Shown in pieces: positions 47,853 through 60,196 of a stretch of DNA of 64,000 bases (the stretch's first letter is position 1; each line of letters opens with the position of its first letter). Both the position numbers and the translations under genes were made by a program. The DNA comes from an uncultured virus (IMG/VR IMGVR_UViG_3300012271_000008) (lineage: Duplodnaviria > Heunggongvirae > Uroviricota > Caudoviricetes), in the IMG/VR virus record IMGVR_UViG_3300012271_000008, positions 1-64,000 of that record; one strand, given 5' to 3'. The notes beneath the pieces were generated by a model. That model had not been told where the DNA came from and made no database searches. It saw nothing but the letters and a program-made list of their open reading frames with translations.

Positions 47853-48053
47853 TTATTTATTAGCATAATTTACTTCTTCAAAGTTCCTACAATTAACACA
47901 TTTAGGATTATTGCAATTCATTCCTATTGGAACCATTACATTAAATTCTAAACAAGTAGTTAATACTTCTATTTCTTCTCCTTTAAATCTTTCAGGATTT
48001 CTTTTATACCTTTCCATTTCTTCTAGGCTTATTTCTGTTTGTATTTTTTTCAT
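47853..48053 (-). CDS. Hypothetical Cys-rich protein
   Basis: 66 aa, CNNPKCVNC. Confidence 0.5.
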   Translation of the reverse strand: MKKIQTEISLEEMERYKRNPERFKGEEIEVLTTCLEFNVMVPIGMNCNNPKCVNCRNFEEVNYANK

Positions 48054-48054
48054 A

Positions 48055-48192
48055 TTATTTTTTCCACTTTAAGTTTTTTAGTACTTCTTCATCTGGTGTG
48101 TCTTTAAGTATTTCATCTAACATCTCCATATTAGTTTTTATAATATTAGTTTTAACCTTTATTTTTTCCCACCATTCTAATTTATTTTTCAT
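48055..48192 (-). CDS. Small hypothetical protein (45 aa, not in ORF track)
   Basis: MKNKLEWWEK...KWKK*; ATG 6 nt after a promoter. Confidence 0.5.
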   Translation of the reverse strand: MKNKLEWWEKIKVKTNIIKTNMEMLDEILKDTPDEEVLKNLKWKK

Positions 48193-48198
48193 TTACTA

Positions 48199-48230
48199 CA
48201 AAGGTAGTACATATATAGCGTAAATGCTAA
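48199..48230 (-). promoter_or_regulatory. Bacteroidota sigma-70 type promoter starting the leftward arm
   Basis: TTAG-N20-TACCTTTG. Confidence 0.7.
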
Positions 48231-48361
48231 TTTAGTACTCAGAAAAAAAATTATAAAAAAAAATTTAGAAAGAGTTCAGGTGGTTAGAGGAGCCAAAACA
48301 ACAACCCCCCATCTTAAATCTGACGGTAAAGCCCCCTAATGGGTAATATCATAGAAACAGA

Positions 48362-48742
48362 ATGCATACATATATAGTTAAAGAGGTCAGTACTGCTGAT
48401 CCAGCTAAAACAAACGGAGTTGTTCTACACTCAGCACAGGTTGCTCAAGTAGGAGGAGTGGTAAAGAGAGGTGACAAGACAATTCAACTGAAAGATAAAG
48501 CAGTTGGATGGATCACAACATTTGATGACAAACTAGAGGTAGGTGATTCTATTGACTATGATGAGAAGCTTCATCGTGTCAACTGGCTAACTGCCAATGA
48601 TAGAGTTATTCACCTTGCTGTTAATGAGCAAGAGCGTGAAGACAGAAAAGCTGTCCTAGCTGCTGGTGGTTATGAGAAGCAACAAGAAAGCATTAAAGCA
48701 ATGCTAATGGCTGATGCTGCTATTGCAGGCAATGAAGGCTAA
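48362..48742 (+). CDS. Hypothetical protein, first gene of rightward arm
   Basis: 126 aa, higher GC than neighbours, followed by a terminator. Confidence 0.7.
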   Translation: MHTYIVKEVSTADPAKTNGVVLHSAQVAQVGGVVKRGDKTIQLKDKAVGWITTFDDKLEVGDSIDYDEKLHRVNWLTANDRVIHLAVNEQEREDRKAVLAAGGYEKQQESIKAMLMADAAIAGNEG

Positions 48743-48746
48743 AGAT

Positions 48747-48768
48747 AAGGGGGCTAACGCCCCTTTTT
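48747..48768 (+). terminator. Intrinsic terminator
   Basis: GGGGC-TAAC-GCCCC-TTTTT. Confidence 0.85.
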
Positions 48769-48801
48769 CTCTTTAAATTGCAATAAGAATTAGATTAAAA
48801 A

Positions 48802-48842
48802 TACTTAAATGGTTAGATAAGGTTCGATTCCTTAATAAGTAG
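48802..48842 (+). ncRNA. Minimal tRNA-like element (acceptor stem + T arm only)
   Basis: TACTTA/TAAGTA stem; TAAGG-TTCGATT-CCTTA arm. Confidence 0.5.
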
Positions 48843-48933
48843 CTAAAGAAATAAAGATATGATGATGATAATTTGGTTTATAATATTAATACTGATAATA
48901 ACTCAGGTAGATTAACAATTTAAAAGAAATAAA

Positions 48934-49179
48934 ATGGAAATAATTAACAAAATAGATGGCATAAAGTCACAAATTCCTATTCAATTAGAATATTATATAG
49001 GTTTAAACACTATGATATTTTCTAAACCTCGTACAAGCTTTGAAAATATAGTTTCAATAGAATTAATAGTTAAAGATGTGCAAGGTTGGGACGTAATGGT
49101 AGTAACTAATTCCACAGGCTTTAAGTATATGTACAAAGGTAAGTGGAATGATGGTTTTATGCCACAAAATGAGTCATAG
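48934..49179 (+). CDS. Hypothetical protein
   Basis: 81 aa with an A-rich leader. Confidence 0.6.
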   Translation: MEIINKIDGIKSQIPIQLEYYIGLNTMIFSKPRTSFENIVSIELIVKDVQGWDVMVVTNSTGFKYMYKGKWNDGFMPQNES

Positions 49180-49308
49180 TAAGAGTTTAGAGAGTGGTAG
49201 GAGTTAACATCCACCACTCTAAGCCTATTCTAACACTATTTCTCTAAGTTATCACACATACTATTATATAGCTTTTTAACAATTTTAACAATCTAACAAG
49301 AAACTAAA

Positions 49309-49545
49309 ATGAATCAAAACAAAAATTTACTAGAAGACAATACTATTACTAACACTGAAGAAGATAATTTTGCAATATTAGCAAACAAATCTAAATCATT
49401 AGTAGATAAAAATAAAAATAGTGTAAAATGTCAACATTTGTCAACATCAGACTTTACATCAAGTGGTAAAACTAAAATTTGCAATGATTGTGGAGTAATA
49501 TTTAAAGCTACTGTTATTTGGACAGAACAAATAGCATCTCATTAA
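49309..49545 (+). CDS. Hypothetical Zn-ribbon protein
   Basis: CQH...CNDCG. Confidence 0.6.
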   Translation: MNQNKNLLEDNTITNTEEDNFAILANKSKSLVDKNKNSVKCQHLSTSDFTSSGKTKICNDCGVIFKATVIWTEQIASH

Positions 49546-49571
49546 TCTAACAATCTAACAATAACAATCAA

Positions 49572-49775
49572 ATGAAAAGATTAACAAACTTACAGTTAAA
49601 AGACATTATAAAGCAATTTAATGATCTTAAAGAAGATGGGCAGATTATACAGACTAGTGAAGATGAATTCATTACTGTTGATGATTATGCTAAAAATGTA
49701 AAAGAAGATATAGAAAGTTTTCAAGAAAAAGATTTTGATTGGGATTTAAACTTACATAACAAAAACAATGAATAA
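49572..49775 (+). CDS. Small acidic hypothetical protein
   Basis: 67 aa, Asp/Glu-rich. Confidence 0.6.
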   Translation: MKRLTNLQLKDIIKQFNDLKEDGQIIQTSEDEFITVDDYAKNVKEDIESFQEKDFDWDLNLHNKNNE

Positions 49776-49872
49776 ATTAAACAAAAAAATAGACCCTAAT
49801 GAATGGGATGAATTTGGTAATTTAGTACCTGATCCAGAAGGTAATGATCCTGATGGACACGAAGCTCTTTAA
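49768..49872 (+). CDS. Small acidic peptide (34 aa, not in ORF track)
   Basis: MNKLNKKIDPNEWDEFGNLVPDPEGNDPDGHEAL*; overlaps the previous stop. Confidence 0.5.
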   Translation: MNKLNKKIDPNEWDEFGNLVPDPEGNDPDGHEAL

Positions 49873-49978
49873 CAATACTAATAAACAACTGTAACCAATT
49901 TGTATTACTGAATATAATTGGGTAAAAACATTTGAACTGCACTTCAGTTGTTTATTTTTTTAAACTCTTTAACAATAT

Positions 49979-50348
49979 GGGGGTGTTCTGGCTTTTGACA
50001 GAATGGCTATGATTAGACGAACAAGTATGCAAAAATGAAACTATCAATGCATTAAATAATATGTTTCAAGTCATAAACGACAAACAAATATCAAATACAA
50101 CTGTTGATGCTCAAGGAGTATTACAGATGTTCCCTACTGTTAAGCTAGAAATAGCAGCATAGTATGGCTGATTTAAGCTGGTAACTAAATTACCAAAAAC
50201 AGAGATAAAACTGTAAAGCTAAAGGTGGAGCTTGTACTAAGTAGTACAGCCTAATATTCTAGTTTAAAGAATACAAACAAAAACAAAACTTGTAACAATT
50301 TATTTATGATTAACATTTTGGACCTGGGTTCGACTCCCAGCACCTCCA
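49979..50348 (+). ncRNA. ssrA: tmRNA
   Basis: Acceptor stem GGGGGTG/CACCTCC with G3:U pair and discriminator A; TTCTGGCTTTTGAC at the 5' end; GAC-CTGGG-TTCGACT-CCCAG T arm; internal tag frame ending ...EIAA-TAG (50160-50162). Confidence 0.92.
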
Positions 50349-50382
50349 CAATAATAATTTAACATTTTAACAATTTAACATT

Positions 50383-50676
50383 ATGAATAACGAAGAAAAA
50401 ACAAAAAATAATATGAAAACATTTGCAGTATTAATTACATCATCAGATGGTAAAACATTAATCAGTAATCACGATGAATCTGGAGATAGTATTGTCAGTA
50501 TTATACAATTGTATGAAAGTTTAGGTCAATTACCTAAAGGTCAAATCATAAAAGCAATAGTTGAAAAAACTGAACATTATACTCCAATAGAAGCTAAAGA
50601 TTTTGATAATGGTACAATAAAGGAAATGAATTCTGATTTTAATGTTGACTTATATGAACAAATTTTGTGTATGTAA
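50383..50676 (+). CDS. Hypothetical protein
   Basis: 97 aa, acidic. Confidence 0.6.
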   Translation: MNNEEKTKNNMKTFAVLITSSDGKTLISNHDESGDSIVSIIQLYESLGQLPKGQIIKAIVEKTEHYTPIEAKDFDNGTIKEMNSDFNVDLYEQILCM

Positions 50677-50842
50677 ATCAAAAATCATAGTCAGACAAAA
50701 GACGTTAAAAGAAGGGAATAGCTGAATATCCTTAAACAAATAGAAGCTAGATCTACATAAAACCATCCGTAAGATAGATGGCACACAACCAAAAAAGGGA
50801 AAAGTGTGCTGATGTAGAAGGAATAGAAAACAGTGAAATAAT

Positions 50843-50925
50843 AAAATGTCTCTTTCATGGGCGAGGTTAATACGGATATTCTTTTAAAGATCCCTATTAA
50901 TAGTGGTTCAAGTCCACTGCATTTT
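50843..50925 (+). ncRNA. tRNA-like element with extended anticodon arm
   Basis: AAAATGT/GCATTTT stem; AGTGG-TTCAAGT-CCACT T arm; TTAATA..GGAT..CTTTTAA..ATCC..TATTAA arm. Confidence 0.45.
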
Positions 50926-51078
50926 TTATTTTAACCAAAAACACACTGTATTACTGCAGTAGTACCACGTTTTATCTATAATGATAAATTCAATAAAGTA
51001 TAATCTACAAGGTAGAGGGTTCTTTCAGTGTGTTTTATTTTATTTTTATTAATCAAAAAACAAGAAAAAAGAAATATT

Positions 51079-51270
51079 ATGAATTATTTAGATTTAGATC
51101 CTTATTTAATAATAGGATTATCAGCCGTTTTAATTATAGTAGTAATGTTTACTGCATATGATTTATTTGAAAATGAGTTAGTGATGACCAATAATTGGTT
51201 TACGTGTAGTATGATATTTTGGGTATCTATAGCTTTGCTTATTTTATCTTTTATTTATTTAACTTATTAA
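51079..51270 (+). CDS. Small membrane protein
   Basis: Two TM segments; likely start MNYLDL. Confidence 0.55.
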   Translation: MNYLDLDPYLIIGLSAVLIIVVMFTAYDLFENELVMTNNWFTCSMIFWVSIALLILSFIYLTY

Positions 51271-51281
51271 CAGAAATCAAT

Positions 51282-51452
51282 ATGAAAAAATTATTATTAT
51301 TTACATTATTAGGCTTAACATTAATTTTAATATTATTAGGTTATGCTACAATAATATGGTGGGGAACATTACAAAGTTATATAGCTTTATTTGAAGTTTT
51401 TGTATTCTCTTTTTTACTTTATAAAACTTTTATTGAATTAAAAAGAATATGA
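51282..51452 (+). CDS. Small membrane protein
   Basis: Likely start MKKLLLF; two TM segments. Confidence 0.5.
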   Translation: MKKLLLFTLLGLTLILILLGYATIIWWGTLQSYIALFEVFVFSFLLYKTFIELKRI

Positions 51453-51739
51453 ATTTTCTTATTATATATTTTATAGGGTATCTTATTATGTTTTTATATG
51501 CATCTATAAGTGAAATTTTAATTGAAAAAGATAAACTTACAGTAGAAATTTTACTTGGATTTTTTTTGATAAGTATAAGTTCTTGGGGGGGTTTATTTTT
51601 TATTTTAGCAATTAAATCAATTGATAGAATAATTGTATTAAAAAGTAAAATGAGTAAACCTCTTAAAAAATGGTTAAACACAACAATTTATACTCCTAAC
51701 ACAGGTGGAGCTAATCATTTTACAACAAACAAGAAATAG
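51449..51739 (+). CDS. Membrane protein
   Basis: 96 aa with two TM segments. Confidence 0.6.
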   Translation: MNFLIIYFIGYLIMFLYASISEILIEKDKLTVEILLGFFLISISSWGGLFFILAIKSIDRIIVLKSKMSKPLKKWLNTTIYTPNTGGANHFTTNKK

Positions 51740-52048
51740 ATAATTGAAACACATCCTTTGCGGAAATTTGGAACGTTGTTATCTTTATATTAATAGTAGT
51801 GAAGCTGTAAAAATGTGGACAAGCTAAGGGTTTAGCTCACATTAGGTTCTACGGAATTAACAGAAACCTTGAAAGACCCGAAACTATTAATAACACAAAC
51901 TATTCACAAAGTAAGAAAGCTCGTACTGACTCTTAACTGAGAAGTACAAGTATATATTAAAAGAACTACGATAAATTAATATCACGTAGAATCTTAAAAG
52001 GCAGGTGAAGATCCTGAAGTGAATAGTTTTTTAAAAAATTAAATACAA

Positions 52049-52294
52049 ATGAAAAAATTACTATTAATACTAACATTTCTTACATTTTTAGGATGTAACA
52101 AAGAAAATATTACACCAACACCAGAGTGTAATTGTGGAACAATATCTGATTATGGAACTAAAAATGGTTTGTATTGGATAGAATTAGAAAATGATTGTTC
52201 AGGTAATAAAGAACATTGGTTTTTTAGAGAAGAAGTTTTTATAACTGCACAAATAGGTTATAATTTGTGTATGTATGATGAACCAAATTGGTAA
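52049..52294 (+). CDS. Lipoprotein
   Basis: Signal peptide II MKKLLLILTFLTFLG-C. Confidence 0.75.
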   Translation: MKKLLLILTFLTFLGCNKENITPTPECNCGTISDYGTKNGLYWIELENDCSGNKEHWFFREEVFITAQIGYNLCMYDEPNW

Positions 52295-52744
52295 AGAAAT
52301 ACGTTAAACCTATGACGTTGTGATTAACCTCGGTCCTGAAAATGGATAAAACCGTGGTCAATGTCACTAAATAAAGATAGAATATAAATTGTAATAACAC
52401 AAGCACCTGGAGGTAAGCAGGTTTAATAGAAACTACAGTCTAAGCTTAGTGTTATTACATACAAATTTATCAAGTGTACCAACTGTATGGTAATATGTTG
52501 GATAGAGATATAGTAACTAATCTGTTAAATGACGTTACTTAGATGAAACAATAGTATGTTTGAATAGATTTAACACTATAATAAAACATTGAGAAGTAGT
52601 TAGAATACACTTAGGAGTTTACAACAAGAGATAGACAGAATGGAGGATGAATTAAGTAATCCGAGTCATGTACTAATTATCTTGTGACCATTTATAGAAA
52701 TATAGATGGTGCTAATACATCACTGAGAATACAGTAAAACTCCT

Positions 52745-52769
52745 AGCAGGAGAGTATAATCCTGCTTTT
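52745..52769 (+). terminator. Putative conditional terminator
   Basis: AGCAGGA-N8-TCCTGCT-TTT, 16 nt before the ATG at 52786. Confidence 0.55.
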
Positions 52770-52785
52770 AAAAAAATTAAAAATT

Positions 52786-52941
52786 ATGACAATATTAGAA
52801 ATTACATTAACAGGAATAATATGGATAGCGTATGGTTGTCGTGTAAGTGACCAACATGATTGGAATGAACACTCTGCATCTCATATAATTTTTGCACCTA
52901 TTGTGCTACTTTATAGAGTAGTAGTAGGAATTTTCAATAAA
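52786..52941 (+). CDS. Small membrane protein (51 aa, not in ORF track)
   Basis: MTILEITLTGIIWIAYG...IIFAPIVLLYRVVVGIFK*. Confidence 0.6.
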
Positions 52942-52959
52942 CCTTAAAACAAAATCAAA

Positions 52960-53592
52960 ATGCAATTAGAAACAGTACAGGTAATAATGTTACCTGCAAA
53001 GAGCGGAGCTATTCATAGATACGGTCCTAGTTTATTGTTATATCCTTATGGAGACAGTAAAGCTTGTCATCTCTATTTCACATCAGATGAAGAGATTAAA
53101 GATGAGGATTGGTACTATTGGAGTGTGACAAACTCTATACAAAAATTTAAGGCTCACCTTCGCGACACAAATACACCCAAAAACTCTGATGGTAGTAGAA
53201 AAATTGTAGCAACAACAGATAAGAAGCTTATTGGAGTAAACCAAATACCACAATCATTTGTAGAAGAATATTCTAGACAAGGCGGTATTAATGAGGTTAA
53301 CTTAGAATATCTTGATTGGTGTGACTACGATGATGATAACCCTACAGGATTAGATAAACCTGATTGGAGATTAAAATTAACACCTAACAATGAAGTAATA
53401 ATACACTTGATTAAAGAAAAAATGTATAGTAAAAGTGAAGTTGAAATCTTTCTTAAAAAAGGATTTAATGATTTTAGACTAAAAACAAAAAGTGTTCAAT
53501 ATGTTGTTGGAAATGGAAATCCAAATACAAATGGAACTAAAAAAAAGTTTTTAATTACTAATATAAACAATTGGATTAAAGAAAATTTATAA
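52960..53592 (+). CDS. Hypothetical protein
   Basis: 210 aa; HLYFTSDEEIK, KIVATTD, IPQSFVEEY. Confidence 0.7.
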   Translation: MQLETVQVIMLPAKSGAIHRYGPSLLLYPYGDSKACHLYFTSDEEIKDEDWYYWSVTNSIQKFKAHLRDTNTPKNSDGSRKIVATTDKKLIGVNQIPQSFVEEYSRQGGINEVNLEYLDWCDYDDDNPTGLDKPDWRLKLTPNNEVIIHLIKEKMYSKSEVEIFLKKGFNDFRLKTKSVQYVVGNGNPNTNGTKKKFLITNINNWIKENL

Positions 53593-53595
53593 ATT

Positions 53596-53847
53596 ATGAA
53601 TTATAGAAAAATACATATAAAACCTAAACCTCCATTAAGTAAAACATCAAAACCACCACCAGCTCCTATAGCAAAAGTAACAGTTAAAACTTATACTGTA
53701 GAAGAAATTAACGCTATATTTGATGAAAGAATATCAAATATAAAAACAGAATTAAAACATACTAATTGTCCTACTTACCTAGACACTACATCTTATTTAA
53801 TAGGAGCAAGAGAAATACTAACAGATTTAAAAAAAAAATTTAAGTAA
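53596..53847 (+). CDS. Hypothetical protein
   Basis: 83 aa, Pro-rich N-terminus. Confidence 0.55.
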   Translation: MNYRKIHIKPKPPLSKTSKPPPAPIAKVTVKTYTVEEINAIFDERISNIKTELKHTNCPTYLDTTSYLIGAREILTDLKKKFK

Positions 53848-53997
53848 TTATGAAAAATAAAAGACCAAGAATTAAAGTAAAACAACCTACAAATGTTAAA
53901 ACTACTAATAGAGTAGAACTGATTTGTAGTGGTAATTTAGATGGATTTAATAGTTCACAAAGAAAAATGAATCCAGGAACTGTAACAAGATTTTAAT

Positions 53998-54201
53998 ATG
54001 ATATTATATTTAATAATATACTTTTTAATAGGAGTATTGATTAATTTCAAATTAGTTTCATTAACTGAAAAGCATGGAATTGAATTTTGGAATAAAGATG
54101 ATGGTAAAGACATTGATAAAATGTTATTTTCCACGTTAATAGCGTGGCCTTTAATGTTGTTAGTCATTTTTTACATAATAATTAAACATTATAAGAAATA
54201 A
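53998..54201 (+). CDS. Small membrane protein
   Basis: Two TM segments, AWPL motif. Confidence 0.6.
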   Translation: MILYLIIYFLIGVLINFKLVSLTEKHGIEFWNKDDGKDIDKMLFSTLIAWPLMLLVIFYIIIKHYKK

Positions 54202-54203
54202 TT

Positions 54204-54491
54204 ATGAAATTAAAAGGATATAATAAATTAATATTACAAGTAATATTATTATCTGTAAGTATGATGTTAATGTCACTTTTTACTGACACTGAATTTTGGT
54301 ATAACAATTTTAATACTTTACATTTATTAGATTTAAGTGAAAGATGTGGAAAAGGTGGTTTTGGAGGATCAGAAGGTCACCATTATCACTGGAACTATAG
54401 AGGATTTGTATATAGTATTTCTGGATTTATATTATTTGTAATTACAGTAATAAGAATAATTAACACACATAAAGAAGATGATTTTAGCTAA
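54204..54491 (+). CDS. Membrane protein
   Basis: Two TM segments flanking a His/Gly-rich loop. Confidence 0.6.
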   Translation: MKLKGYNKLILQVILLSVSMMLMSLFTDTEFWYNNFNTLHLLDLSERCGKGGFGGSEGHHYHWNYRGFVYSISGFILFVITVIRIINTHKEDDFS

Positions 54492-54744
54492 ATATCAAAG
54501 AATAAGTCTAAATATGTTAATAACTTCTATAATATGTTATAGTATATTTTATTTAATTAAAATATATATTGTATGGGAATCAGAACATTTTTTTCAAATA
54601 TTTATGGATTTACCTAATATAAATTTAGAAGAAAGAGCAACATTTTTGTTTATATGGGCATTCTTTCAATTTGTAAATTGCATAGTATGGTTCAATATTA
54701 TAACTGATAGAATTAAAAAAAATAAATCAAATTTAAGGTATTAA
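54478..54744 (+). CDS. Membrane protein
   Basis: Two TM segments. Confidence 0.55.
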   Translation: MILAKYQRISLNMLITSIICYSIFYLIKIYIVWESEHFFQIFMDLPNINLEERATFLFIWAFFQFVNCIVWFNIITDRIKKNKSNLRY

Positions 54745-54758
54745 AACAAGAAAAAACA

Positions 54759-55040
54759 ATGAACAAAGTAACACGTAAAAAGAGATATTCATCTCCAGAT
54801 GAAGTGATTAGATCACTATCAACTAAAAATGATGTAAGAATTGTATCTGCAAAAGATGGCAATCAAATTGTAAGAGTACTATCTAATAGTGCTAGAGGTA
54901 GAAAAAATGATCTAGGTAATAGTAGTCTTGGAAAAATAGACTATTTAACAAATCATTGTGGTAACAAATTTACTAAACAAATAGTAGATAAGTTTGAACC
55001 AAAAAAGCCTTTTAAAAAGAAATACCCTACAACAAGGTAA
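54759..55040 (+). CDS. Basic hypothetical protein
   Basis: 93 aa, DLGNSSLGKIDYL. Confidence 0.65.
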   Translation: MNKVTRKKRYSSPDEVIRSLSTKNDVRIVSAKDGNQIVRVLSNSARGRKNDLGNSSLGKIDYLTNHCGNKFTKQIVDKFEPKKPFKKKYPTTR

Positions 55041-55203
55041 TTAAGTAAATACTACTGTGTAGAAATATGCAGTAGTATACTTTTAAAATATCAATGAGAT
55101 TAAAATTAAAATTGTTTTATTTATTCAGATTGAATAAAATTACAAAGAATTTAATAAAAAATGGAGTAGTATCCAAAAGAGACCTAATAAAAATTAACAA
55201 GAA

Positions 55204-55932
55204 ATGAACAAATTAAAAATTGGATTAGTAACAAATATGACTGTAAGAAGTCATGTAGGCATGGGAATTGCTTATGTAAGATTTTGTGAAGAAATAGCAA
55301 GAAGAGCCGAAAAAACATTAAATTTAGTATTAATACATCATACTAATGATTTTATTAAAGACTTAGACATTTTAATATTACCTGGTGGAGCTGACGTAGA
55401 TCCTGCACTTTATGATGAAGAATTATCTTCATTAGTAGGTCGTTTAGATCCACAGAGAGACTTTTTTACTAGAAATGTATTACCATTATATGTTGAGAGT
55501 AAAACGCCTATATTTGGCATTTGTAGAGGTCATCAAGAATTAGCTGCTCATTTTGGTATGAAGCTTATTCAAGATAAGATAGAACCTTTGTCTGAATATG
55601 TATTTGGAGCAGTTATAGAAAAAGTGGAATTAAAGAATTTCTTTAATACTCATGCTTCTGGTGCTAAAAAAGGAGAATACATATTAATAAAAGATGAAAG
55701 AGTTAATCACATTATGGATGTTAATTCTAGACATCATCAATGTGTTAAAGTTTGTGACACTGAAAAAGCAGTTGTAACAGCAGCTCTAGGTAAAATTGAT
55801 TCTGGTAGAATAGAAGCAATGGAATATATAGGTTATCCTATAGTGTCTGTACAATGGCATCCTGAAATTTTGTTTGATACATATACTATGAGATCAATTG
55901 AATTACTACTAGAATATGAAAAAAAAGATTAA
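55204..55932 (+). CDS. Class I glutamine amidotransferase / peptidase C26 family
   Basis: LPGGADVDP..Y, GICRGHQ, VNSRHHQ, VQWHPE. Confidence 0.88.
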   Translation: MNKLKIGLVTNMTVRSHVGMGIAYVRFCEEIARRAEKTLNLVLIHHTNDFIKDLDILILPGGADVDPALYDEELSSLVGRLDPQRDFFTRNVLPLYVESKTPIFGICRGHQELAAHFGMKLIQDKIEPLSEYVFGAVIEKVELKNFFNTHASGAKKGEYILIKDERVNHIMDVNSRHHQCVKVCDTEKAVVTAALGKIDSGRIEAMEYIGYPIVSVQWHPEILFDTYTMRSIELLLEYEKKD

Positions 55933-56021
55933 AATAGTAAAGATTATTAATTTTGAGTATTACTCAAGATTTGGAGCACCTTTTTAAGGTAGGATCAAAG
56001 CCGTGAGAACCTAATTCTCAA

Positions 56022-56089
56022 GAACACACATAGCTTAATGGTAAAAGCATTTTTTAAAAAAGATTATGGTTCGATTCCATGTGTGTTCG
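56022..56089 (+). ncRNA. tRNA-like element with collapsed anticodon arm
   Basis: GAACACA/TGTGTTC stem; D arm GCTT-AATGGTAA-AAGC; T6A6 hairpin in place of the anticodon arm; TATGG-TTCGATT-CCATG T arm. Confidence 0.6.
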
Positions 56090-56091
56090 CT

Positions 56092-56367
56092 ATGTATAGT
56101 AAAATAGAAGGAAAAGAAGGTGAATATTTAAAAGAAGTAAATGATTTGTTTGAAAATAATGGGATAGATGATTTTATAATTGATCATGATGATTATGTAG
56201 AAAAATCAGTTAAAAACCAGAAACCTATAAGAGGTTTTTATTTTTGTACAAATAATAGAGAAATTAATATTCAATTGGAAGAGATAAATACTCTAAGAAT
56301 GGACGTTTTTAAAGGAATGTGTGCAGTAAAATGTTTAAAAGAAGTAGAAAATGTATTACCGTTTTAA
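56092..56367 (+). CDS. Hypothetical protein
   Basis: Likely start MYSKIEG, downstream of the tRNA-like element. Confidence 0.55.
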   Translation: MYSKIEGKEGEYLKEVNDLFENNGIDDFIIDHDDYVEKSVKNQKPIRGFYFCTNNREINIQLEEINTLRMDVFKGMCAVKCLKEVENVLPF

Positions 56368-56665
56368 ATTAAGATCAAAAATATTTTTAGTATTGTTATC
56401 AATATTAACATTTATATTAACAATAAGTTTTATTGTTAAAAATTACGAGAATTTACAATTTTTAGTAATGTTTTTTATAATTATTATTTTTGTCTTAATA
56501 TATCAAGGATTAATAATAAGTAGTAAACTTACTCAATTTAATTTAGGATTTGAGGATTGTAAAAGAAATAAAAGTAAAAAGAAATTAATAATAGATGAAG
56601 ATTATCATTTAGGTTATAATTTCTATATAAACAAAATGTTTAATGAACAAAATAGAAAAAAATAA
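56351..56665 (+). CDS. Membrane protein
   Basis: Two TM segments. Confidence 0.55.
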   Translation: MYYRFKLRSKIFLVLLSILTFILTISFIVKNYENLQFLVMFFIIIIFVLIYQGLIISSKLTQFNLGFEDCKRNKSKKKLIIDEDYHLGYNFYINKMFNEQNRKK

Positions 56666-56972
56666 AAAAAATGTTATAACAAGTCATAAAGGTATTGTTA
56701 ACTTTTATGCAGGCCATTATGATACACTTTTAAAAAATCATTTTGAAGTAAAATCTTGTATTATACCTAAAATGGAATTAGGTTTTAAAAAAGCAAATGA
56801 TGGCGAATCTACTTTTGTTTTTCATAGTAGGCAAGGAAGAGAATTTACAATTAAATTTGATTTTCCTAAAAAATTACCTCTTAAACTGGTAAAAGCTTTT
56901 GCAGCTGTAGAATGTTTAAAAAATGTTCAATCTGTTATTATGAATGATTACTATCATAATAACATTTATTAA
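56643..56972 (+). CDS. Hypothetical protein
   Basis: 109 aa; C-terminal AVECLKNV resembles AVKCLKEV in 56092-56367. Confidence 0.6.
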   Translation: MNKIEKNKKNVITSHKGIVNFYAGHYDTLLKNHFEVKSCIIPKMELGFKKANDGESTFVFHSRQGREFTIKFDFPKKLPLKLVKAFAAVECLKNVQSVIMNDYYHNNIY

Positions 56973-57098
56973 AATATCCCTATACTCCATACAAGGTATG
57001 TGAGTGGGAAGGTTGGTATGACTCTATTACAGTACCTTAAACTGTAAGAGTAATTATTCTATACGTTAATTAAAATCCTAGTATAGTAGGTAAACAAC

Positions 57099-57320
57099 AT
57101 GTATTTAATTATATTTGAAAATCACCTTAAAAGAGTTTGGAAACAATTTGGTAACTATCACAGAAGATTCTATTGGAAGCCTGGTCAATATCAATATTGC
57201 CAGCAAGGTAAAAGAATCTTGTGTAGAAAAGAAGTCCAAGAAGATAGAACTCTATTTTTTAATGCTATAACAGGCGAAGAAGTTATTTTAACTAAAGAAG
57301 CAACAGTAGAAGCAATATGA
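57099..57320 (+). CDS. Hypothetical protein
   Basis: 73 aa. Confidence 0.55.
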   Translation: MYLIIFENHLKRVWKQFGNYHRRFYWKPGQYQYCQQGKRILCRKEVQEDRTLFFNAITGEEVILTKEATVEAI

Positions 57321-57559
57321 GAGTAATATCAATTGAAGACATTAAATGGTCTTTAGATCTTAAAAAAAGATTTAGTAATTATCCTAAGCTACCTAATGCT
57401 TTAGTTCAACAGTGTTTTACTGGTGGAGATTTAGAACATGGTAGAGTTGAAAGAGAATATAGAGGGAGTCACATCTCAATATATTCTTTTCAAAGAAGAC
57501 TCAGAAATTGGGAGAATAATTATCAAATGCAATCAATAAATAATTTAAACAAAAGATAG
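57317..57559 (+). CDS. Hypothetical protein
   Basis: 80 aa, ATGA overlap. Confidence 0.55.
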   Translation: MRVISIEDIKWSLDLKKRFSNYPKLPNALVQQCFTGGDLEHGRVEREYRGSHISIYSFQRRLRNWENNYQMQSINNLNKR

Positions 57560-57560
57560 T

Positions 57561-57977
57561 ATGAAAAAAAGATCATTATATTTTGAAAACAAATCTAAGT
57601 TTAAAAAAGTAAAAATTGCTAGAAAAGTAAAAGCTCCTAAGCCTGGAAATCCTAATGCAGCTAAGTTTAACCCTCCTATAAAAAGTACATATCTTCAAAA
57701 TTATTTTTTAGATGAAAATTGTCCAAGAACTTCTGAAGAAAATGGAAATTTAAAAGTATTTTCAACTGGAATTCCTAACAGAGCCACAAGAAAATCAATG
57801 ATGGGTCAAGCTAAGATGCCTAATTCTGGAAACAGAAAAATGACTAGAGGTAGAAAAAAAACCTATTTAATGGTTAATAAATTCATAAAAGTTAAAAAAA
57901 TAACTAAAAATGGATTTAAAATTTTTTACAAAAAAGTTCAAGTAAGTTTAATTCACGTTTATAACAAATTTAGATAA
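57561..57977 (+). CDS. Highly basic hypothetical protein
   Basis: 138 aa, Lys/Arg-rich. Confidence 0.65.
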   Translation: MKKRSLYFENKSKFKKVKIARKVKAPKPGNPNAAKFNPPIKSTYLQNYFLDENCPRTSEENGNLKVFSTGIPNRATRKSMMGQAKMPNSGNRKMTRGRKKTYLMVNKFIKVKKITKNGFKIFYKKVQVSLIHVYNKFR

Positions 57978-58285
57978 TGAGAAAAAAAGAACAAGTAGTA
58001 AATCAAGAAAAAGTGTATTTCTTTTATGGTAAAAGAGGTAAAAATCAAATAACTTTAGGAGGAATAGTTAACCCTAAAGATAATACTAAAATGACTATTG
58101 GTCTTGCACAATGTCATAAAAATGATGTCTTTAAAAAAGAAAAAGCAAGAATGATTGTAACAGGTAGAGCTGTGACTCATTTAGAAAATAGGGATAATAG
58201 AGAAAATGAATCTATGCAGATAAATATAAACCCTAAAAATCCTGGAAGAGAGTTTTCTGCATTTGCACAAGCATACTGTGATTAA
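57977..58285 (+). CDS. Conserved phage hypothetical protein
   Basis: IGLAQCHKNDVFKKEKARMI motif. Confidence 0.65.
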   Translation: MRKKEQVVNQEKVYFFYGKRGKNQITLGGIVNPKDNTKMTIGLAQCHKNDVFKKEKARMIVTGRAVTHLENRDNRENESMQININPKNPGREFSAFAQAYCD

Positions 58286-58306
58286 ACATTTTTATAAATT
58301 ATAATA

Positions 58307-58331
58307 TAGGGGATTAATTTCCCCTTTATTT
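58307..58331 (+). terminator. Intrinsic terminator
   Basis: AGGGGA-TTAATT-TCCCCT-TTATTTT. Confidence 0.75.
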
Positions 58332-58332
58332 T

Positions 58333-58422
58333 GGTCAATTAAACTCATTGGTAGAGTTCTAGACTTTAAGTGATTAAGTTCACCCAAATCCTGAGTAATA
58401 AGTTCGATTCTTATATTGACTG
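58333..58422 (+). ncRNA. tRNA-like element (Trp-like) with insertion in anticodon loop
   Basis: GGTCAAT/ATTGACT stem; ACTC-ATTGGTA-GAGT D arm; ATAAG-TTCGATT-CTTAT T arm; CT-[18 nt]-CCA-AA. Confidence 0.6.
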
Positions 58423-58437
58423 CTATTATTTAATATT

Positions 58438-58974
58438 ATGAATATAATTAATTTTAAAGTAATAGCTATACTAACACTAATAACAATTAGTGGATTTTGT
58501 ATAACACCTACAAAGGTTGTGGAAAAACCTGTAGTTATAGAAATCCTATGTGAAGAAGATACTTACATAGAAGAAAAAGAAAACATATTTAATTTAATTG
58601 ACAAATACTGTGCAAAATACAATGTATGTAATGCCGTAGTATATCAAATAGGATTAAACGAATCTGGATGGCCTAACCCTAATAACTTAGAATATACTCA
58701 AAAAGTATGGGATTGTGGTGCATTTAGTTATGGTGATATGCAAATATGGGAACCAACTCGTAAAAGTATGTTTAAAAAACTTAATTTAAGTGATACAACT
58801 AGAGAAAACTGTTTGCACGCTAGCATATATTATTTACATTTAAAATATGTAAAATATGGCAGTTGGTATAAAGCTAGATTTGCTTACGGTAGAGGAAGTT
58901 GGAGACCAGAAAATACTTGGAAACCAATAGAAAAAAGATTTATGAACAAACACAACTGGAAACAATATGACTAA
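58438..58974 (+). CDS. Lytic transglycosylase (SLT/lysozyme-like) with N-terminal signal/anchor
   Basis: LNESG (catalytic ES), YGDMQI, YLHLKY..YGSW..A..AY. Confidence 0.7.
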   Translation: MNIINFKVIAILTLITISGFCITPTKVVEKPVVIEILCEEDTYIEEKENIFNLIDKYCAKYNVCNAVVYQIGLNESGWPNPNNLEYTQKVWDCGAFSYGDMQIWEPTRKSMFKKLNLSDTTRENCLHASIYYLHLKYVKYGSWYKARFAYGRGSWRPENTWKPIEKRFMNKHNWKQYD

Positions 58975-58979
58975 TAAAA

Positions 58980-59591
58980 ATGAAGATAACTAAAAATAAA
59001 GTTTTTTCTAATAGAAGTTTTAACAATAAAATATATTACAAGACTCATAAAAATGCACCAAAATATGGTGCAGAGTCTTGTTTTTCATTTTTAAATTTAA
59101 ACTCAAACTATTTAAAAATTGAATTACACAAACATTCTGATATTACAAGAAAAGAATTCTTAGAATATTTAAGAAAAATGAAATTAATTTTTAAAGATTT
59201 AGAATACAAAAAAGAAAAAAAGAAATATTATTTAATTATGGGTAGTTCTTTATTACCTAAAGGTACTTTAAATTCTAAAAAAAAAACTCTTGCAATTCTA
59301 ACAATAATTAGATTTTTATGGGAAAGCCATGGAGATTGTTATTCTGTTTCTTTTATTAAAGAATTTGTAAATGATAATCGTAGAATAGAAACTATGATTA
59401 AATTTTCAGAAGCATTCAATAATAATAAAGATAAAATCTATTATTCTTCAGGACATGGTATAGATAGCCTCAATAATAAATCAAAAGGAATAGTAATTCA
59501 AACTTCTAAAGAATTTTTTAGTAAAGATAAAGATAGTGTGACAGGTTATTTTGCAAGAAAAGAATCTAAATTTAAACCAAAAGCAATATGA
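58980..59591 (+). CDS. Hypothetical protein
   Basis: 203 aa; SCFS, LTIIRFLWE, SGH; coupled to the GATase gene. Confidence 0.65.
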   Translation: MKITKNKVFSNRSFNNKIYYKTHKNAPKYGAESCFSFLNLNSNYLKIELHKHSDITRKEFLEYLRKMKLIFKDLEYKKEKKKYYLIMGSSLLPKGTLNSKKKTLAILTIIRFLWESHGDCYSVSFIKEFVNDNRRIETMIKFSEAFNNNKDKIYYSSGHGIDSLNNKSKGIVIQTSKEFFSKDKDSVTGYFARKESKFKPKAI

Positions 59592-60196
59592 AAAAAGTAT
59601 ATGTAATAGGAAATGCAGTAAATTATGCTGAATTTTTAAAAGATTTTGAACTAACTAATGATTCAAAATCAGCAGATCTTATAATTTTAACAGGAGGAGA
59701 GGATGTAAGTCCTGAACTTTATGAAGAAGATTCTCATCCACATACAGGAAACAATCCTGTAAGAGATGCTAGTGAAATAAATTCTTGGAATAAAATAAAA
59801 CAAGAAAATCCTGATGTTTTAACTATGGGTATATGTAGAGGGTCTCAATTGGGATGTGTGTTGTCAGGTGGAAAACTTGTACAACATATGAATCATCCTT
59901 ATATGCACAAAGTTTCTACACCAGAAGGTAAAGATTATGAAGTAACTAGTACCCATCATCAAATGCAATATCCTTTTAATCTTAATGAAAAAGATTATGA
60001 AATTAAAGCTTATTGTAAAATAACAGGTAGTACTTATGCAGAAGGAGTTCCAGCAGGTATGGAAAAACCTCCTGTAGATCCTGAAATAGTATTTTATAAT
60101 AAAACTAAAATATTAGCAATACAAGGTCATCCTGAAATGGTTCCTAACAGTGAATTTGCTTTAGAAGTAAATAATCTGGTTAATAGTCTTATTTAA
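59588..60196 (+). CDS. Class I glutamine amidotransferase / peptidase C26 family
   Basis: TGGEDVSPELY, GICRGSQ, VTSTHHQM, IQGHPE. Confidence 0.88.
   Translation: MKKVYVIGNAVNYAEFLKDFELTNDSKSADLIILTGGEDVSPELYEEDSHPHTGNNPVRDASEINSWNKIKQENPDVLTMGICRGSQLGCVLSGGKLVQHMNHPYMHKVSTPEGKDYEVTSTHHQMQYPFNLNEKDYEIKAYCKITGSTYAEGVPAGMEKPPVDPEIVFYNKTKILAIQGHPEMVPNSEFALEVNNLVNSLI

What the first reader, a model, noticed from the sequence alone, without database searches (positions are those of the whole stretch)
49186..57090. Array of multibranched RNA modules with long perfect closing stems between early genes
Seen closing stems: AATAAACAACTG/CAGTTGTTTATT (49880-49956), TCTACAT/ATGTAGA three-way junction (~50752-50818), AAAACACACTG/CAGTGTGTTTT (50938-51036), TATTAATAGT/ACTATTAATA (51788-51892), AAACTATTCAC/GTGAATAGTTT (51897-52029), TGTAATAACAC/GTGTTATTACA (52390-52459) and TAGGAGTTT/AAACTCCTA (52612-52745). 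Further structures lie at 49186-49223, 55049-55078, 55953-56021 and 56979-57090. Most enclose one to three internal hairpins, some with T-loop-like loops (CAGG-TGAAGAT-CCTG, TCC-TGAAAAT-GGA) or GAAA loops. The sequences are unrelated but the architecture is shared. Inference: a cassette of small RNAs or processing sites (compare RNase III sites in the T7 early mRNA), possibly decoys for host RNA-binding or defence proteins.
Basis: partly seen in the sequence, partly recalled or inferred. Interest (0 to 1): 0.7.

Follow-up and report, generated by a model that had tools for sequence, protein, structure and literature searches.

The report
RNA-gene island in crAss-like phage
A 3-kb stretch at the head of a crAss-like phage's rightward genes is packed with real, conserved folded RNAs: a ribosome-rescue tmRNA, tRNA look-alikes without anticodons, and several uncatalogued families, one related to an abundant RNA seen in a cultured phage. 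Their jobs are still unknown.

Summary
The window is 64 kb of a 74.7-kb crAss-like phage. Between 49.9 and 52.8 kb on the + strand lie:
- a three-way-junction RNA (M2) fused to a tRNA-shaped RNA with no anticodon arm (Z);
- a pseudoknotted about 105-nt RNA (X);
- a three-hairpin RNA (Y);

A second anticodon-less tRNA mimic sits at 56022-56089.

M2, Z, X, Y and the large RNA all recur in other uncultured phage contigs with compensatory base changes, and none matches Rfam 15. The large RNA's 3' domain matches (E about 1e-11) the intergenic region of Cellulophaga phage phi14:2 that was reported as an abundant, stable early non-coding RNA. X occurs in at least 119 viral contigs, usually wedged between tRNA genes.

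Two modules (49880-49956, 50938-51036) have no relatives found, and two "further structures" fold no better than shuffles. An unbiased folding scan of the island is not significant, so the case rests on covariation. Nothing supports RNase III sites. tRNA-style punctuation and end-sealing stems are my favoured, untested, mechanism.

The parts
49880..49956 (+). Module M1: a 12-bp perfect closing stem around one or two hairpins, followed by a T-run and preceded by CTTTAACAAT. It is an orphan with no relative found.
   Evidence: Stem and fold; z -3.2 (a biased cut); no blastn match in the fetched loci.
49979..50351 (+). One-piece tmRNA gene.
   Evidence: Rfam RF00023 at 55.5 bits (gathering score 47), E 4.7e-19. 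ARAGORN calls a tmRNA at 49979-50349 with a tag reading frame.
50752..50818 (+). Module M2: a conserved three-way junction. Conserved sequence runs on to about 50840, and the module leads straight into Z.
   Evidence: Five distinct sequences, 98.7% of cells paired, 5 of 15 pairs with compensatory change, slid controls 0-2. M2 lies directly upstream of Z in the window, L277 and L279.
50843..50925 (+). Module Z: a tRNA-shaped RNA with an acceptor stem, a 3-bp D-like stem, a T arm with a GTTCAAGTC loop region, and a variable arm in place of the anticodon arm. A T-run follows.
   Evidence: Seven distinct sequences, 99.3% of cells paired, 11 of 21 pairs compensatory, 7 of 7 acceptor pairs covary. 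Not called by ARAGORN and no Rfam tRNA match at E<=10.
50938..51036 (+). Module M4: an 11-bp closing stem around three hairpins (a four-way junction), followed by a T-run. It is an orphan.
   Evidence: z -3.5 (a biased cut); no blastn match in the fetched loci.
51787..51894 (+). Module X: a member of a widespread phage RNA family. It has a closing stem, an invariant GTGAAGCTG block, an H-type pseudoknot (AAGGTTW with WAACCTT) and an invariant GAAAGACCCGAA block.
   Evidence: Its motif is found in at least 119 viral stretches. In the 52-sequence alignment 84.8% of cells are paired against 72.9% in shuffles, with 189 compensatory cells against 82; the pseudoknot pair is AU:27 / UA:25 with 0 broken. 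Model R2 scores 74.9 bits here, but the window was a training row. No Rfam family matches.
51897..52029 (+). Module Y: an 11-bp closing stem, a conserved hairpin pair and a conserved 7-nt-loop hairpin next to the 3' strand of the closing stem. A T-run follows.
   Evidence: Four distinct sequences, 96.7% of cells paired, 8 of 23 pairs compensatory, slid controls 1-2. In L036 the same domain sits in the anticodon-arm position of a Z-type RNA.
52298..52722 (+). Large conserved nine-helix RNA.
   Evidence: Alignment of 31 distinct sequences: 48 pairs, 96.1% of cells paired, 23 pairs compensatory against 8.4+-2.0 in shuffles and 6-11 when slid. nhmmer finds a single copy in the genome, 52298-52719, E 4.7e-58. 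No Rfam match.
52746..52770 (+). Hairpin plus T-run immediately after the large RNA (terminator-like).
   Evidence: Read from the sequence. Comparable hairpin plus T-run features follow the RNA in L014, L024 and L038.
52960..53592 (+). 210-aa protein of unknown function that neighbours the large RNA here and in relatives. It is a possible partner, untested.
   Evidence: Homologs lie next to the RNA in L004 and L024. In phi14:2 the RNA follows g004, whose C-terminus reads like the family consensus. 44 homologs, all unnamed. No fold match.
56022..56089 (+). tRNA-like element with a 10-bp acceptor stem, normal D and T arms, and a 13-nt T6A6G stretch where the 17-nt anticodon arm should be. It ends 3 nt before an ATG at 56093.
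   Evidence: Rfam tRNA at 42.4 bits (gathering score 29) for 56024-56089. Not called by ARAGORN. 10-bp inverted repeat 56022-56031/56079-56088. Sequence.
58333..58423 (+). Ordinary tRNA-Leu (anticodon taa), the only canonical tRNA in the window.
   Evidence: ARAGORN; Rfam 38 bits.
49186..49223 (+). Stable hairpin after ORF 48934-49179.
   Evidence: Fold; z -4.9.
55049..55078 (+). Perfect 13-bp hairpin with a T-run after ORF 54759-55040 (terminator-like).
   Evidence: Fold; z -5.6; sequence.

Best explanation
The region is an island of RNA genes at the head of the rightward (early, by analogy with phi14:2) gene arm of a crAss-like phage. It is not an array of RNase III sites.

On the + strand it encodes a tmRNA, two tRNA-shaped RNAs that have lost the anticodon arm (Z and 56022-56089), three small conserved folded RNAs (M2, X, Y), two orphan modules (M1, M4), and one about 425-nt nine-helix RNA of the same family as the abundant, long-lived early non-coding RNA of Cellulophaga phage phi14:2.

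Shown:
- The elements exist.
- Five of them are conserved with compensatory changes.
- They are modular: X and Y occur free-standing here, but in relatives they sit inside variable loops of the large RNA, inside a tmRNA, or in the anticodon-arm position of Z.
- None is in Rfam 15.

Inferred:
- They are transcribed with the early genes, in phi14:2 by the virion-borne RNA polymerase.
- The tRNA-shaped parts serve as punctuation where host RNase P and RNase Z cut.
- The 7-12-bp closing helices, often followed by a T-run, pair the 5' and 3' ends of each released RNA. This insulates its fold from its neighbours and protects it from exonucleases, which would explain the stability seen in phi14:2.

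My committed guess for function: the products act in trans on the host's tRNA and translation apparatus, as protein-binding mimics or scaffolds. I base this on three points: every identifiable member (tmRNA, tRNA mimics) belongs to that world, X lives inside tRNA arrays of many phages, and the conserved single-stranded junctions look like binding or active sites.
For: - Identity of the phage: Crass_capsid 1.4e-99, crAss_MUZ 1.1e-44, CrAss_Ring_1 7.1e-45. The genome is 74,712 bases. The strand switch lies near 48.2 kb.
- tmRNA and tRNA-like calls.
- Large RNA: 31 distinct sequences, 96.1% of cells paired, 23 of 48 pairs compensatory, 0 of 500 shuffles as high, slid controls 6-11. A covariance model of its 3' domain hits phi14:2 3183-3365 at 58.3 bits, E 1.1e-11. 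That is inside the g004-g006 gap, where annotated ORFs were withdrawn in 2020.
- Expression of the relative: the phi14:2 preprint states that two long intergenic regions there are transcribed rightward above most genes, from the earliest time point, and do not decline (passages of 10.1101/2020.03.07.982082).
- X. Of 75 distinct X loci, 41 hold a tRNA and all of these are on X's strand. In 28 a tRNA starts within 25 nt downstream; in 17 one ends within 25 nt upstream.
- Z, Y and M2 covariation.
- Strand: the frequent U-G pairs (for example 23 of 31 at one pair of the large RNA; 6 of 7 at the base of Z's acceptor stem) would be A-C mismatches on the other strand.
- Modularity: X lies inside loops of the large RNA in L013 and L025, and inside the phi14:2 tmRNA.
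- T-runs follow M1, Z, M4, Y and the hairpin after the large RNA.
Against: - There are no RNA data for this phage: no RNA run is listed that holds it. So transcription, ends and processing are all inferred.
- Fixed-grid folding z-scores of the island are not significantly below background.
- M1 and M4 have no relatives in what I fetched and could be chance or lineage-specific.
- The sequence-only profile sees phi14:2 only marginally (nhmmer E 0.012), and only the 3' domain was modelled.
- The phi14:2 paper found no common motif upstream of early transcripts, so no promoters can be placed here.
- The two models found nothing in the first 50 kb of crAss001, which carries a plain 23-tRNA array in the equivalent place. 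The families are therefore not general to Crassvirales.
- Nothing I ran bears on function.
Confidence: 0.55

Rival explanations
1. X, and perhaps other modules, is a new class of self-cleaving ribozyme. It would cut the early or tRNA-array precursor at its own boundary, doing for these phages what HDV-like theta ribozymes do next to tRNAs of gut phages.
For: X has a compact pseudoknotted core with long invariant single-stranded blocks (27 invariant columns in 52 sequences, partly forced by my 18-nt search motif). It abuts tRNA genes at 0-9 nt on the same strand. Theta ribozymes show that small ribozymes next to phage tRNAs exist (abstract of PMC10879173). Earlier notes of this scan report hatchet and twister ribozymes in RNA islands of other crAss-like phages (unchecked).
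Against: No Rfam ribozyme family matches X or anything else in 48000-58600, even at E<=10. X's topology, with the 5' and 3' ends paired in P1, differs from the HDV fold. A closing stem that joins both ends would also fit a stable product. No cleavage site can be inferred.
Confidence: 0.15
2. One reading: the stems are RNase III processing and stabilising sites in the early mRNA, as in T7.
For: The modules lie between small early ORFs. Long terminal stems could stabilise upstream messages. Two plain hairpins (49186-49223, 55049-55078) follow ORF stops.
Against: The closing stems are 7-12 bp and enclose multibranch loops. From my recalled knowledge, RNase III sites need roughly two turns of coaxial duplex. 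The conserved parts are junctions and pseudoknots, not the stems. The same modules occur inside other RNAs and inside tRNA arrays, where no mRNA needs processing.
Confidence: 0.08
3. The large RNA is a functional analogue of GOLLD and ROOL: an ornate phage RNA that works as an RNA-only multimeric assembly.
For: It has about 425 nt, nine helices, several multistem junctions, variable peripheral hairpins on an invariant core, a phage location and neighbouring tRNA-family genes. GOLLD and ROOL are described as large, often near tRNAs and in prophages (passages of PMC5737381), and as forming RNA-only complexes (abstract shown in the listing).
Against: It matches neither Rfam model. It is smaller than ROOL (581 nt on average). 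I have no evidence of self-association. A conserved neighbouring protein (52960-53592) hints at a ribonucleoprotein instead.
Confidence: 0.1
4. The modules are cis-regulatory leaders (riboswitch or attenuator-like) of the adjacent small ORFs.
For: Several end in a stem plus T-run just upstream of an ORF. The element at 56022-56089 abuts a start codon.
Against: The large RNA lies upstream of the 210-aa gene here but downstream of its homolog in L004 and phi14:2. X sits between tRNAs or inside other RNAs. The phi14:2 RNAs accumulate as abundant stable species.
Confidence: 0.07
5. Chance folding of AT-rich spacer. This applies only to M1, M4, 55953-56021 and 56979-57090.
For: No relatives were found for M1 or M4. 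z is -1.4 and -0.8 for the last two. The grid scan is not significant.
Against: The 11-12-bp perfect stems of M1 and M4 are 2 of only 10 such repeats in the genome, and they lie in the same 2.6 kb as proven RNAs, each followed by a T-run.
Confidence: 0.3

Closest known systems
Early long non-coding RNAs of Cellulophaga phage phi14:2 (Drobysheva et al., preprint 10.1101/2020.03.07.982082; passages read)
   Same: crAss-like phage and rightward early arm. The phi14:2 gap after g004 holds a match to the 3' domain of the window's large RNA (58.3 bits, E 1.1e-11), a tmRNA, and an X module (48.5 bits, E 2.5e-9).
   Different: In phi14:2 the RNAs were only reported as abundant transcripts, with no structure or family described. 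The sequence is too diverged for blastn and marginal for nhmmer. X is inside the tmRNA there but free-standing here. The RNA lies downstream of the g004-type gene there and upstream of it here.
GOLLD and ROOL large ornate RNAs (Weinberg et al. 2017, PMC5737381, passages read)
   Same: Large, multi-junction RNAs with unknown function, found in phages or prophages and near tRNA genes.
   Different: No match to either Rfam model. The window's RNA is smaller, has many more invariant nucleotides (58 invariant columns in 31 sequences), and so far appears only in crAss-like or uncultured aquatic phage contigs.
HDV-like theta ribozymes beside phage tRNAs (Kienbeck et al. 2024, PMC10879173, abstract read)
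   Same: A small structured RNA wedged against tRNA genes of uncultured phages; a pseudoknotted core.
   Different: X has a different topology (its ends pair with each other), is about 100-135 nt long, matches no Rfam HDV-type family, and self-cleavage is untested.
tRNA punctuation of mitochondrial transcripts, and the tRNA-like mascRNA that sets the 3' end of MALAT1 (recalled, no call)
   Same: tRNA-shaped elements without a decoding role placed at boundaries between other RNAs, where RNase P or Z could cut: Z after M2, and 56022-56089 directly before an ORF.
   Different: No cleavage has been shown here, and the host and enzymes are bacterial.
Stable RNAs 'species 1 and 2' (rnaC, rnaD) in the phage T4 tRNA cluster (recalled, no call)
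   Same: Small stable phage RNAs of unknown function, co-located with tRNA genes.
   Different: No sequence comparison was made. blastn of a typical X against 50,697 phage records found nothing.
RNase III sites of the T7 early mRNA (recalled)
   Same: Structured elements between early genes.
   Different: Short closing stems, multibranch interiors, conserved junctions, and occurrence inside other RNAs.

Membership tests
tmRNA (Rfam RF00023), element 49979-50351 | Covariance-model score above the curated threshold over the full model (tRNA-like ends plus body) | tested here: met
   55.5 bits against a gathering score of 47, model positions 1-374.
tmRNA (Rfam RF00023), element 49979-50351 | Internal tag reading frame ending in a stop | tested here: met
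   ARAGORN reports a 19-residue tag ending ..LEIAA*.
tRNA (Rfam RF00005), element 56022-56089 | Acceptor, D and T arms scored by the tRNA model | tested here: met
   42.4 bits against a gathering score of 29.
tRNA (Rfam RF00005), element 56022-56089 | 5-bp anticodon stem with a 7-nt loop | tested here: not met
   The model alignment leaves 1 nt where the 7-nt loop belongs. ARAGORN does not call the element.
tRNA, element Z 50843-50925 | Cloverleaf with acceptor stem, T arm and D-like stem | tested here: met
   Covariation in 7 sequences, with 7 of 7 acceptor pairs compensatory.
tRNA, element Z 50843-50925 | Anticodon arm; recognised by tRNA models | tested here: not met
   A variable arm stands in its place, about 13 nt in L281 and over 100 nt in L279 and L274 (my count from the rows). 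No Rfam tRNA match at E<=10 and no ARAGORN call.
phi14:2 early lncRNA family (defined here by model R1) | 3' domain: two covarying helices flanked by the invariant blocks | tested here: met
   Window 99.5 bits (a training row); phi14:2 58.3 bits, E 1.1e-11, not in the training set.
phi14:2 early lncRNA family (defined here by model R1) | Abundant, stable early transcript | not testable with these tools
   Reported for phi14:2 only. There are no RNA data for the window's phage.
GOLLD / ROOL | Match to the family covariance model | tested here: not met
   No match at the gathering score or at E<=10.
GOLLD / ROOL | Large multi-junction RNA, in a phage, near tRNA genes | tested here: met
   Nine helices over about 425 nt. 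A tmRNA and tRNA-like genes lie within 2 kb.
Known small self-cleaving ribozymes (hammerhead, twister, pistol, hatchet, HDV-like) | Match to any Rfam ribozyme model | tested here: not met
   None in 48000-58600 at E<=10. None on 20 X-bearing loci at E<=0.1.
RNase III processing site (T7 type) | About two turns of coaxial duplex, often with an internal loop (recalled definition) | tested here: not met
   Closing stems are 7-12 bp with multibranch interiors. Cleavage itself cannot be tested here.

The most novel reading that the evidence does not exclude
X is a previously uncatalogued, widespread RNA class of phage tRNA arrays with an active role. It could be a new self-cleaving or tRNA-processing ribozyme. 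More speculatively, it could be a mimic of the 23S rRNA peptidyl-transferase loop: the words of its three invariant blocks (GTGAAG..TG..CAG, AACCTT, GAAAGACCC) all occur within E. coli 23S positions 2023-2076. In this reading the about 425-nt RNA is a new ornate RNA on the scale of ROOL. Together they would form a kit of interchangeable RNA domains that phages graft into tmRNAs, tRNA scaffolds and each other.
Probability: 0.15. Interest if true: 0.9.

Novelty: new variant of a known kind. Interest (0 to 1): 0.75.

Why it matters
crAss-like phages are among the most abundant viruses known, yet their early programme is almost unexplored. The only published hint is one sentence on two abundant, stable non-coding RNAs of phi14:2, whose functions "remain to be determined".

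This window gives that observation a structure and a family: a nine-helix consensus with covariation, with relatives in dozens of uncultured contigs. It also shows that the RNA travels with a set of other conserved RNAs.

One of these, X, is not confined to crAss-like phages. It sits between tRNA genes in at least 119 viral contigs and matches nothing in Rfam 15, so it is a candidate new RNA class whose function can be tested directly in vitro.

The modular grafting of whole folded domains into different host RNAs is unusual for bacterial and phage RNAs. phi14:2 with Cellulophaga baltica is a cultured system in which all of this can be tested.

Tried and rejected
- **Phage database searches.** Megablast of 48000-58000 and blastn of 52295-52790 against 50,697 phage records gave no match. 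blastn of a typical X (L110) also gave no match.
- **Rfam.** Nothing matched any module at the gathering score or at E<=10. Nothing but tRNA/tmRNA (plus sub-threshold YrlA and Plastid-ycf2 matches overlapping those tRNAs) matched on 20 X loci.
- **Folding energy.** A fixed-grid z-score scan was not significant. The first run stopped at 38.9 kb, so the background is 649 windows of the minus-strand gene block read on the + strand.
- **RNA data.** Sequencing-run search: no RNA holder listed, 5 DNA holders. I did not lay reads.
- **Neighbouring 210-aa protein.** No Pfam family; one PHROG of unknown function. AlphaFold model with pLDDT 80. No Foldseek match at E<=0.001 (best E 0.38; OB-fold proteins only among the weak rows). 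VIA-align found only helical-hairpin matches at Z<=5.9. No complex prediction was attempted.
- **23S rRNA mimicry by X.** The 9-mer match has a blast-short E of 0.88, and model R2 does not hit the 23S gene. I keep this only as a speculation.
- **X motif in 185,579 prokaryote genomes.** 42 hits, about what chance gives (my estimate is about 70 for uniform composition). By eye only L209, L224 and L231 look like X.
- **A mis-spaced Z pattern.** One search returned 15 hits, of which only 1 (the L036 contig) is a Z. The corrected pattern gave 8 stretches, 6 of them distinct.
- **crAss001.** Models R1 and R2 found no hit at E<=1 on its first 50 kb. The second half was not searched.
- **Literature.** Searches for crAss-like plus structured or non-coding RNA, Crassvirales plus ncRNA, crAss plus GOLLD/ROOL, and Cellulophaga plus crAss-like plus long non-coding RNAs turned up only the phi14:2 preprint. 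A search on RNA motifs next to phage tRNAs gave the theta-ribozyme paper and nothing resembling X. I judged all other listed papers by title and abstract only.
- **Group I intron, retron ncRNA and Y RNA.** I considered these from memory and dropped them: there are no split exons, no reverse transcriptase gene and no Rfam match.

Full report
**Setting.** The window is the first 64 kb of a single 74,712-base contig. Pfam places it among crAss-like phages: Crass_capsid 1.4e-99, crAss_MUZ 1.1e-44, CrAss_Ring_1 7.1e-45. ORFs run on the minus strand up to about 48.2 kb and on the plus strand beyond it, and the GC skew changes sign at the same place. The finding therefore lies at the head of the rightward arm, ahead of a family A DNA polymerase at 60196-62208. 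Almost all small ORFs in 48.3-58.3 kb are orphans in PHROGs.

**The observation.**
- Ten perfect inverted repeats of 11 bp or more with a 20-140 nt loop exist in the whole genome. Four of them lie in 49880-52459.
- Cut at their stems, the modules fold 3-5 SD better than dinucleotide shuffles, except 51788-51892 (z -1.3). 55953-56021 (z -1.4) and 56979-57090 (z -0.8) are unremarkable.
- These cuts are chosen by the stems, so I also ran a fixed 120-nt grid. The 19 windows lying wholly inside the non-coding blocks have mean z -1.08, with 3 below -2. The 649 background windows have mean z -0.24, with 46 below -2 (Fisher p 0.16). Mann-Whitney against 184 + strand coding windows gives p 0.085.
- Folding energy alone therefore does not establish the structures.

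**Known families.** Rfam and ARAGORN find a one-piece tmRNA at 49979-50351 (55.5 bits, gathering score 47, with a tag frame) and a tRNA-Leu(taa) at 58333-58423. Rfam alone finds a tRNA-like element at 56024-56089 whose anticodon arm is collapsed to a T6A6G stretch. Nothing else in 48000-58600 matches any of the 4227 Rfam families, even at E<=10.

**The large RNA.**
- A search with the neighbouring 210-aa protein brought in relatives. One of them (L004) shared two short non-coding blocks with 52367-52506.
- A 21-mer from that block occurs in 13 IMG/VR stretches. A degenerate 22-mer from a second block occurs in 20 IMG/VR stretches and 49 metagenome stretches.
- These gave 36 distinct complete instances. 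I aligned 31 of them. The 5 dropped rows (L024, L043, L057, L062, L071) lacked a recognisable 5' block or were truncated.
- The alignment shows long invariant blocks separated by hairpins of very different length.
- On my nine-helix structure, 96.1% of 1438 cells pair and 23 of 48 pairs show compensatory change. Shuffles give 8.4+-2.0 (0 of 500 as high), and slid partners give 6-11. RNAalifold independently found 33 of these pairs.
- One helix (AAGTGT with ACACTT) is invariant, so its support is only that it pairs.
- A profile HMM finds exactly one copy in the genome, 52298-52719.
That block is unpaired in the consensus. Its 3' arm lies beyond the family's conserved end, and I saw it in no relative I read.

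**Link to phi14:2.**
- The preprint on the phi14:2 virion RNA polymerase reports that two long intergenic regions (the g004-g005 and g005-g006 junctions) are transcribed rightward above most genes. They are present from the earliest time point and do not decline, and their functions are 'to be determined' (passages read).
- The record shows a 1.7-kb gap after g004 in which earlier ORF calls were withdrawn.
- blastn finds nothing, and nhmmer is marginal (E 0.012 on 12 kb).
- I built a covariance model of the 3' domain from 32 of the 36 instances. The four whose domain exceeded 215 nt (L038, L055, L058, L077) were left out. This model hits phi14:2 3183-3365 at 58.3 bits, E 1.1e-11.
- The window's RNA is thus a relative of an RNA known to be expressed, abundant and stable.
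- The 210-aa gene next to it also travels with the RNA. It is downstream of the RNA here and in L024, and upstream of it in L004. In phi14:2 the upstream gene g004 ends in the family's C-terminal consensus. That last link is read by eye only. The protein's fold gave no lead.

**Module X (51787-51894).**
- Its 3' block recurs inside variable loops of the large RNA in L025, L055 and L013, and inside the phi14:2 tmRNA.
It found 42 stretches in prokaryote genomes, which is about chance.
- Of 110 distinct viral loci, 75 carry the second invariant block GTGAAGCTG (2 mismatches or fewer) upstream.
- I aligned 52 distinct sequences. Thirteen odd or subtype rows were excluded in the script, and three more of a short subtype (L154, L166, L186) were left out when I sent the list.
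- The structure is a closing stem, a second stem, and a pseudoknot. It has 84.8% of cells paired against 72.9% in shuffles, and 189 compensatory cells against 82+-7 in shuffles and 43-78 when slid. One pseudoknot pair is A-U in 27 sequences and U-A in 25, with none broken. Only one side of that pair was constrained by my search motif. The closing stem is partly out of register in the MAFFT alignment, which lowers its figures.
- Model R2 finds one copy in the window, plus copies in phi14:2 (4197-4313, E 2.5e-9), L013, L025 and L030.
- X abuts tRNA genes. 41 of 75 loci hold a tRNA, always on X's strand. In 28 a tRNA starts within 25 nt downstream (typically 3-9 nt), and in 17 one ends within 25 nt upstream (0-5 nt).
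- No Rfam family covers it.

**Modules Z, M2 and Y.**
- Z (50843-50925) has seven distinct relatives with a fully covarying 7-bp acceptor stem, a conserved U-G at its base, an invariant 3-bp D-like stem, a T arm, and a variable arm in place of the anticodon arm. By my count from the alignment rows, this arm is about 13 nt in L281 and over 100 nt in L279 and L274. Overall 99.3% of cells pair and 11 of 21 pairs are compensatory.
- M2 (50752-50818) has five sequences, 98.7% of cells paired and 5 of 15 pairs compensatory. It directly precedes Z in the window, L277 and L279.
- Y (51897-52029) has four sequences, 96.7% of cells paired and 8 of 23 pairs compensatory. In L036 the same domain fills the anticodon-arm position of a Z-type RNA.
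- The small alignments are thin, and they were anchored on motifs I chose.
- M1 and M4 found no relative by blastn in the loci held at that point. I had no collection scans left to search further.

**Mechanism.**
- What is shown is a set of conserved, independently folding, recombining RNA domains on the + strand. The U-G pairs fix the strand.
- What I infer is how they are made. They are probably co-transcribed with the early genes, as their phi14:2 relatives are. The tRNA-shaped elements are placed where cuts would separate units: Z right after M2, 56022-56089 three bases before an ATG, and X between tRNAs elsewhere. The long terminal helices, often followed by T-runs (M1, Z, M4, Y and the hairpin after the large RNA), would seal the ends and terminate or protect the RNA.
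- Function is open. The company these RNAs keep (tmRNA, tRNA mimics, tRNA arrays) points to the host's tRNA and translation machinery.
RNase III sites are the least supported.

**Context from this scan.** After I had formed this reading I looked up earlier notes. Several describe RNA islands in other crAss-like phages. One marine case has a roughly 450-base uncatalogued RNA compared with phi14:2. Others have anticodon-less tRNA shapes and, in gut and rumen phages, hatchet or twister ribozymes. These are unchecked AI notes; they agree with my reading but are not independent evidence. crAss001 carries a plain 23-tRNA array in the equivalent position and matches neither model in its first 50 kb.

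**Verdict.** The content is several uncatalogued RNA families, one of them tied to an expressed RNA of a cultured phage and one widespread in phage tRNA arrays. That is worth experimental follow-up.

Noticed in passing
window 48913-50376 (+): The heptamer TAACAAT is clustered: 10 of its 32 + strand occurrences in the genome fall in these 1.5 kb. They mostly lie just upstream of small ORF starts. CTTTAACAAT sits 2-3 nt before both M1 (49867) and the tmRNA (49967). It could be an early promoter, a leader or a processing signal.
   Followed up: partly
L013 (reverse strand), about 4090-4725 in the oriented locus: An HNH endonuclease ORF of about 175 aa, within an insertion of about 640 nt, splits the most conserved block of the large RNA. 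The two halves match profile positions 6-247 and 248-402. This looks like a homing-type insertion into an RNA gene.
   Followed up: partly
L009 4524-4705: A second, partial copy of the large RNA's 3' domain lies about 200 nt after the full copy.
   Followed up: no
L104 344-468 and about 30 similar loci (L091, L095, L105, L107 and others): A shortened X core (the pseudoknot helix plus GAAAGACCC) is embedded in a 125-nt tRNA-like scaffold. The scaffold has a class II-type D arm, and Rfam scores it as tRNA at 38.6 bits. In L104 it directly follows a GGTGCTAA block like the 3' end of the large RNA.
   Followed up: partly
window 48800-48835 (+): A T-arm-like hairpin (AAGG-TTCGATT-CCTT) with a short acceptor-like stem lies after the terminator of ORF 48362-48742. 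Similar T-arm-like hairpins follow the large RNA in phi14:2 and L007.
   Followed up: no
L250 (E. coli 23S rRNA), positions 2023-2076: The words of X's three invariant blocks (GTGAAG.TGCAG, GAAAGACCC at 2057-2065, AACCTT) all occur within this 54-nt stretch of 23S rRNA around the peptidyl-transferase loop. Statistically this is weak (E 0.88 for the 9-mer, and no model hit).
   Followed up: partly
relatives L007, L011, L083, L281, L282, L286: A further recurrent module, with a closing stem AAACTCTCA.../...TGAGAGTTT and an inner TCCAATTGC block, appears in the relatives' islands. It is absent from this genome: there is no CATCCAAT anywhere.
   Followed up: no
window 1-12021 (-), 42407-43927 (-), 55204-55932 and 59588-60196 (+): A giant ORF of more than 4007 aa runs off the window's start. 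The phage also encodes a Cpn60/TCP-1-type chaperonin (6.2e-43) and two paralogous peptidase C26 / glutamine amidotransferase-like genes.
   Followed up: no
L289 (Bacteroides phage crAss001) 1683-5807: In the position equivalent to the island, crAss001 carries 23 annotated tRNA genes interleaved with small ORFs and an HNH endonuclease gene.
   Followed up: partly
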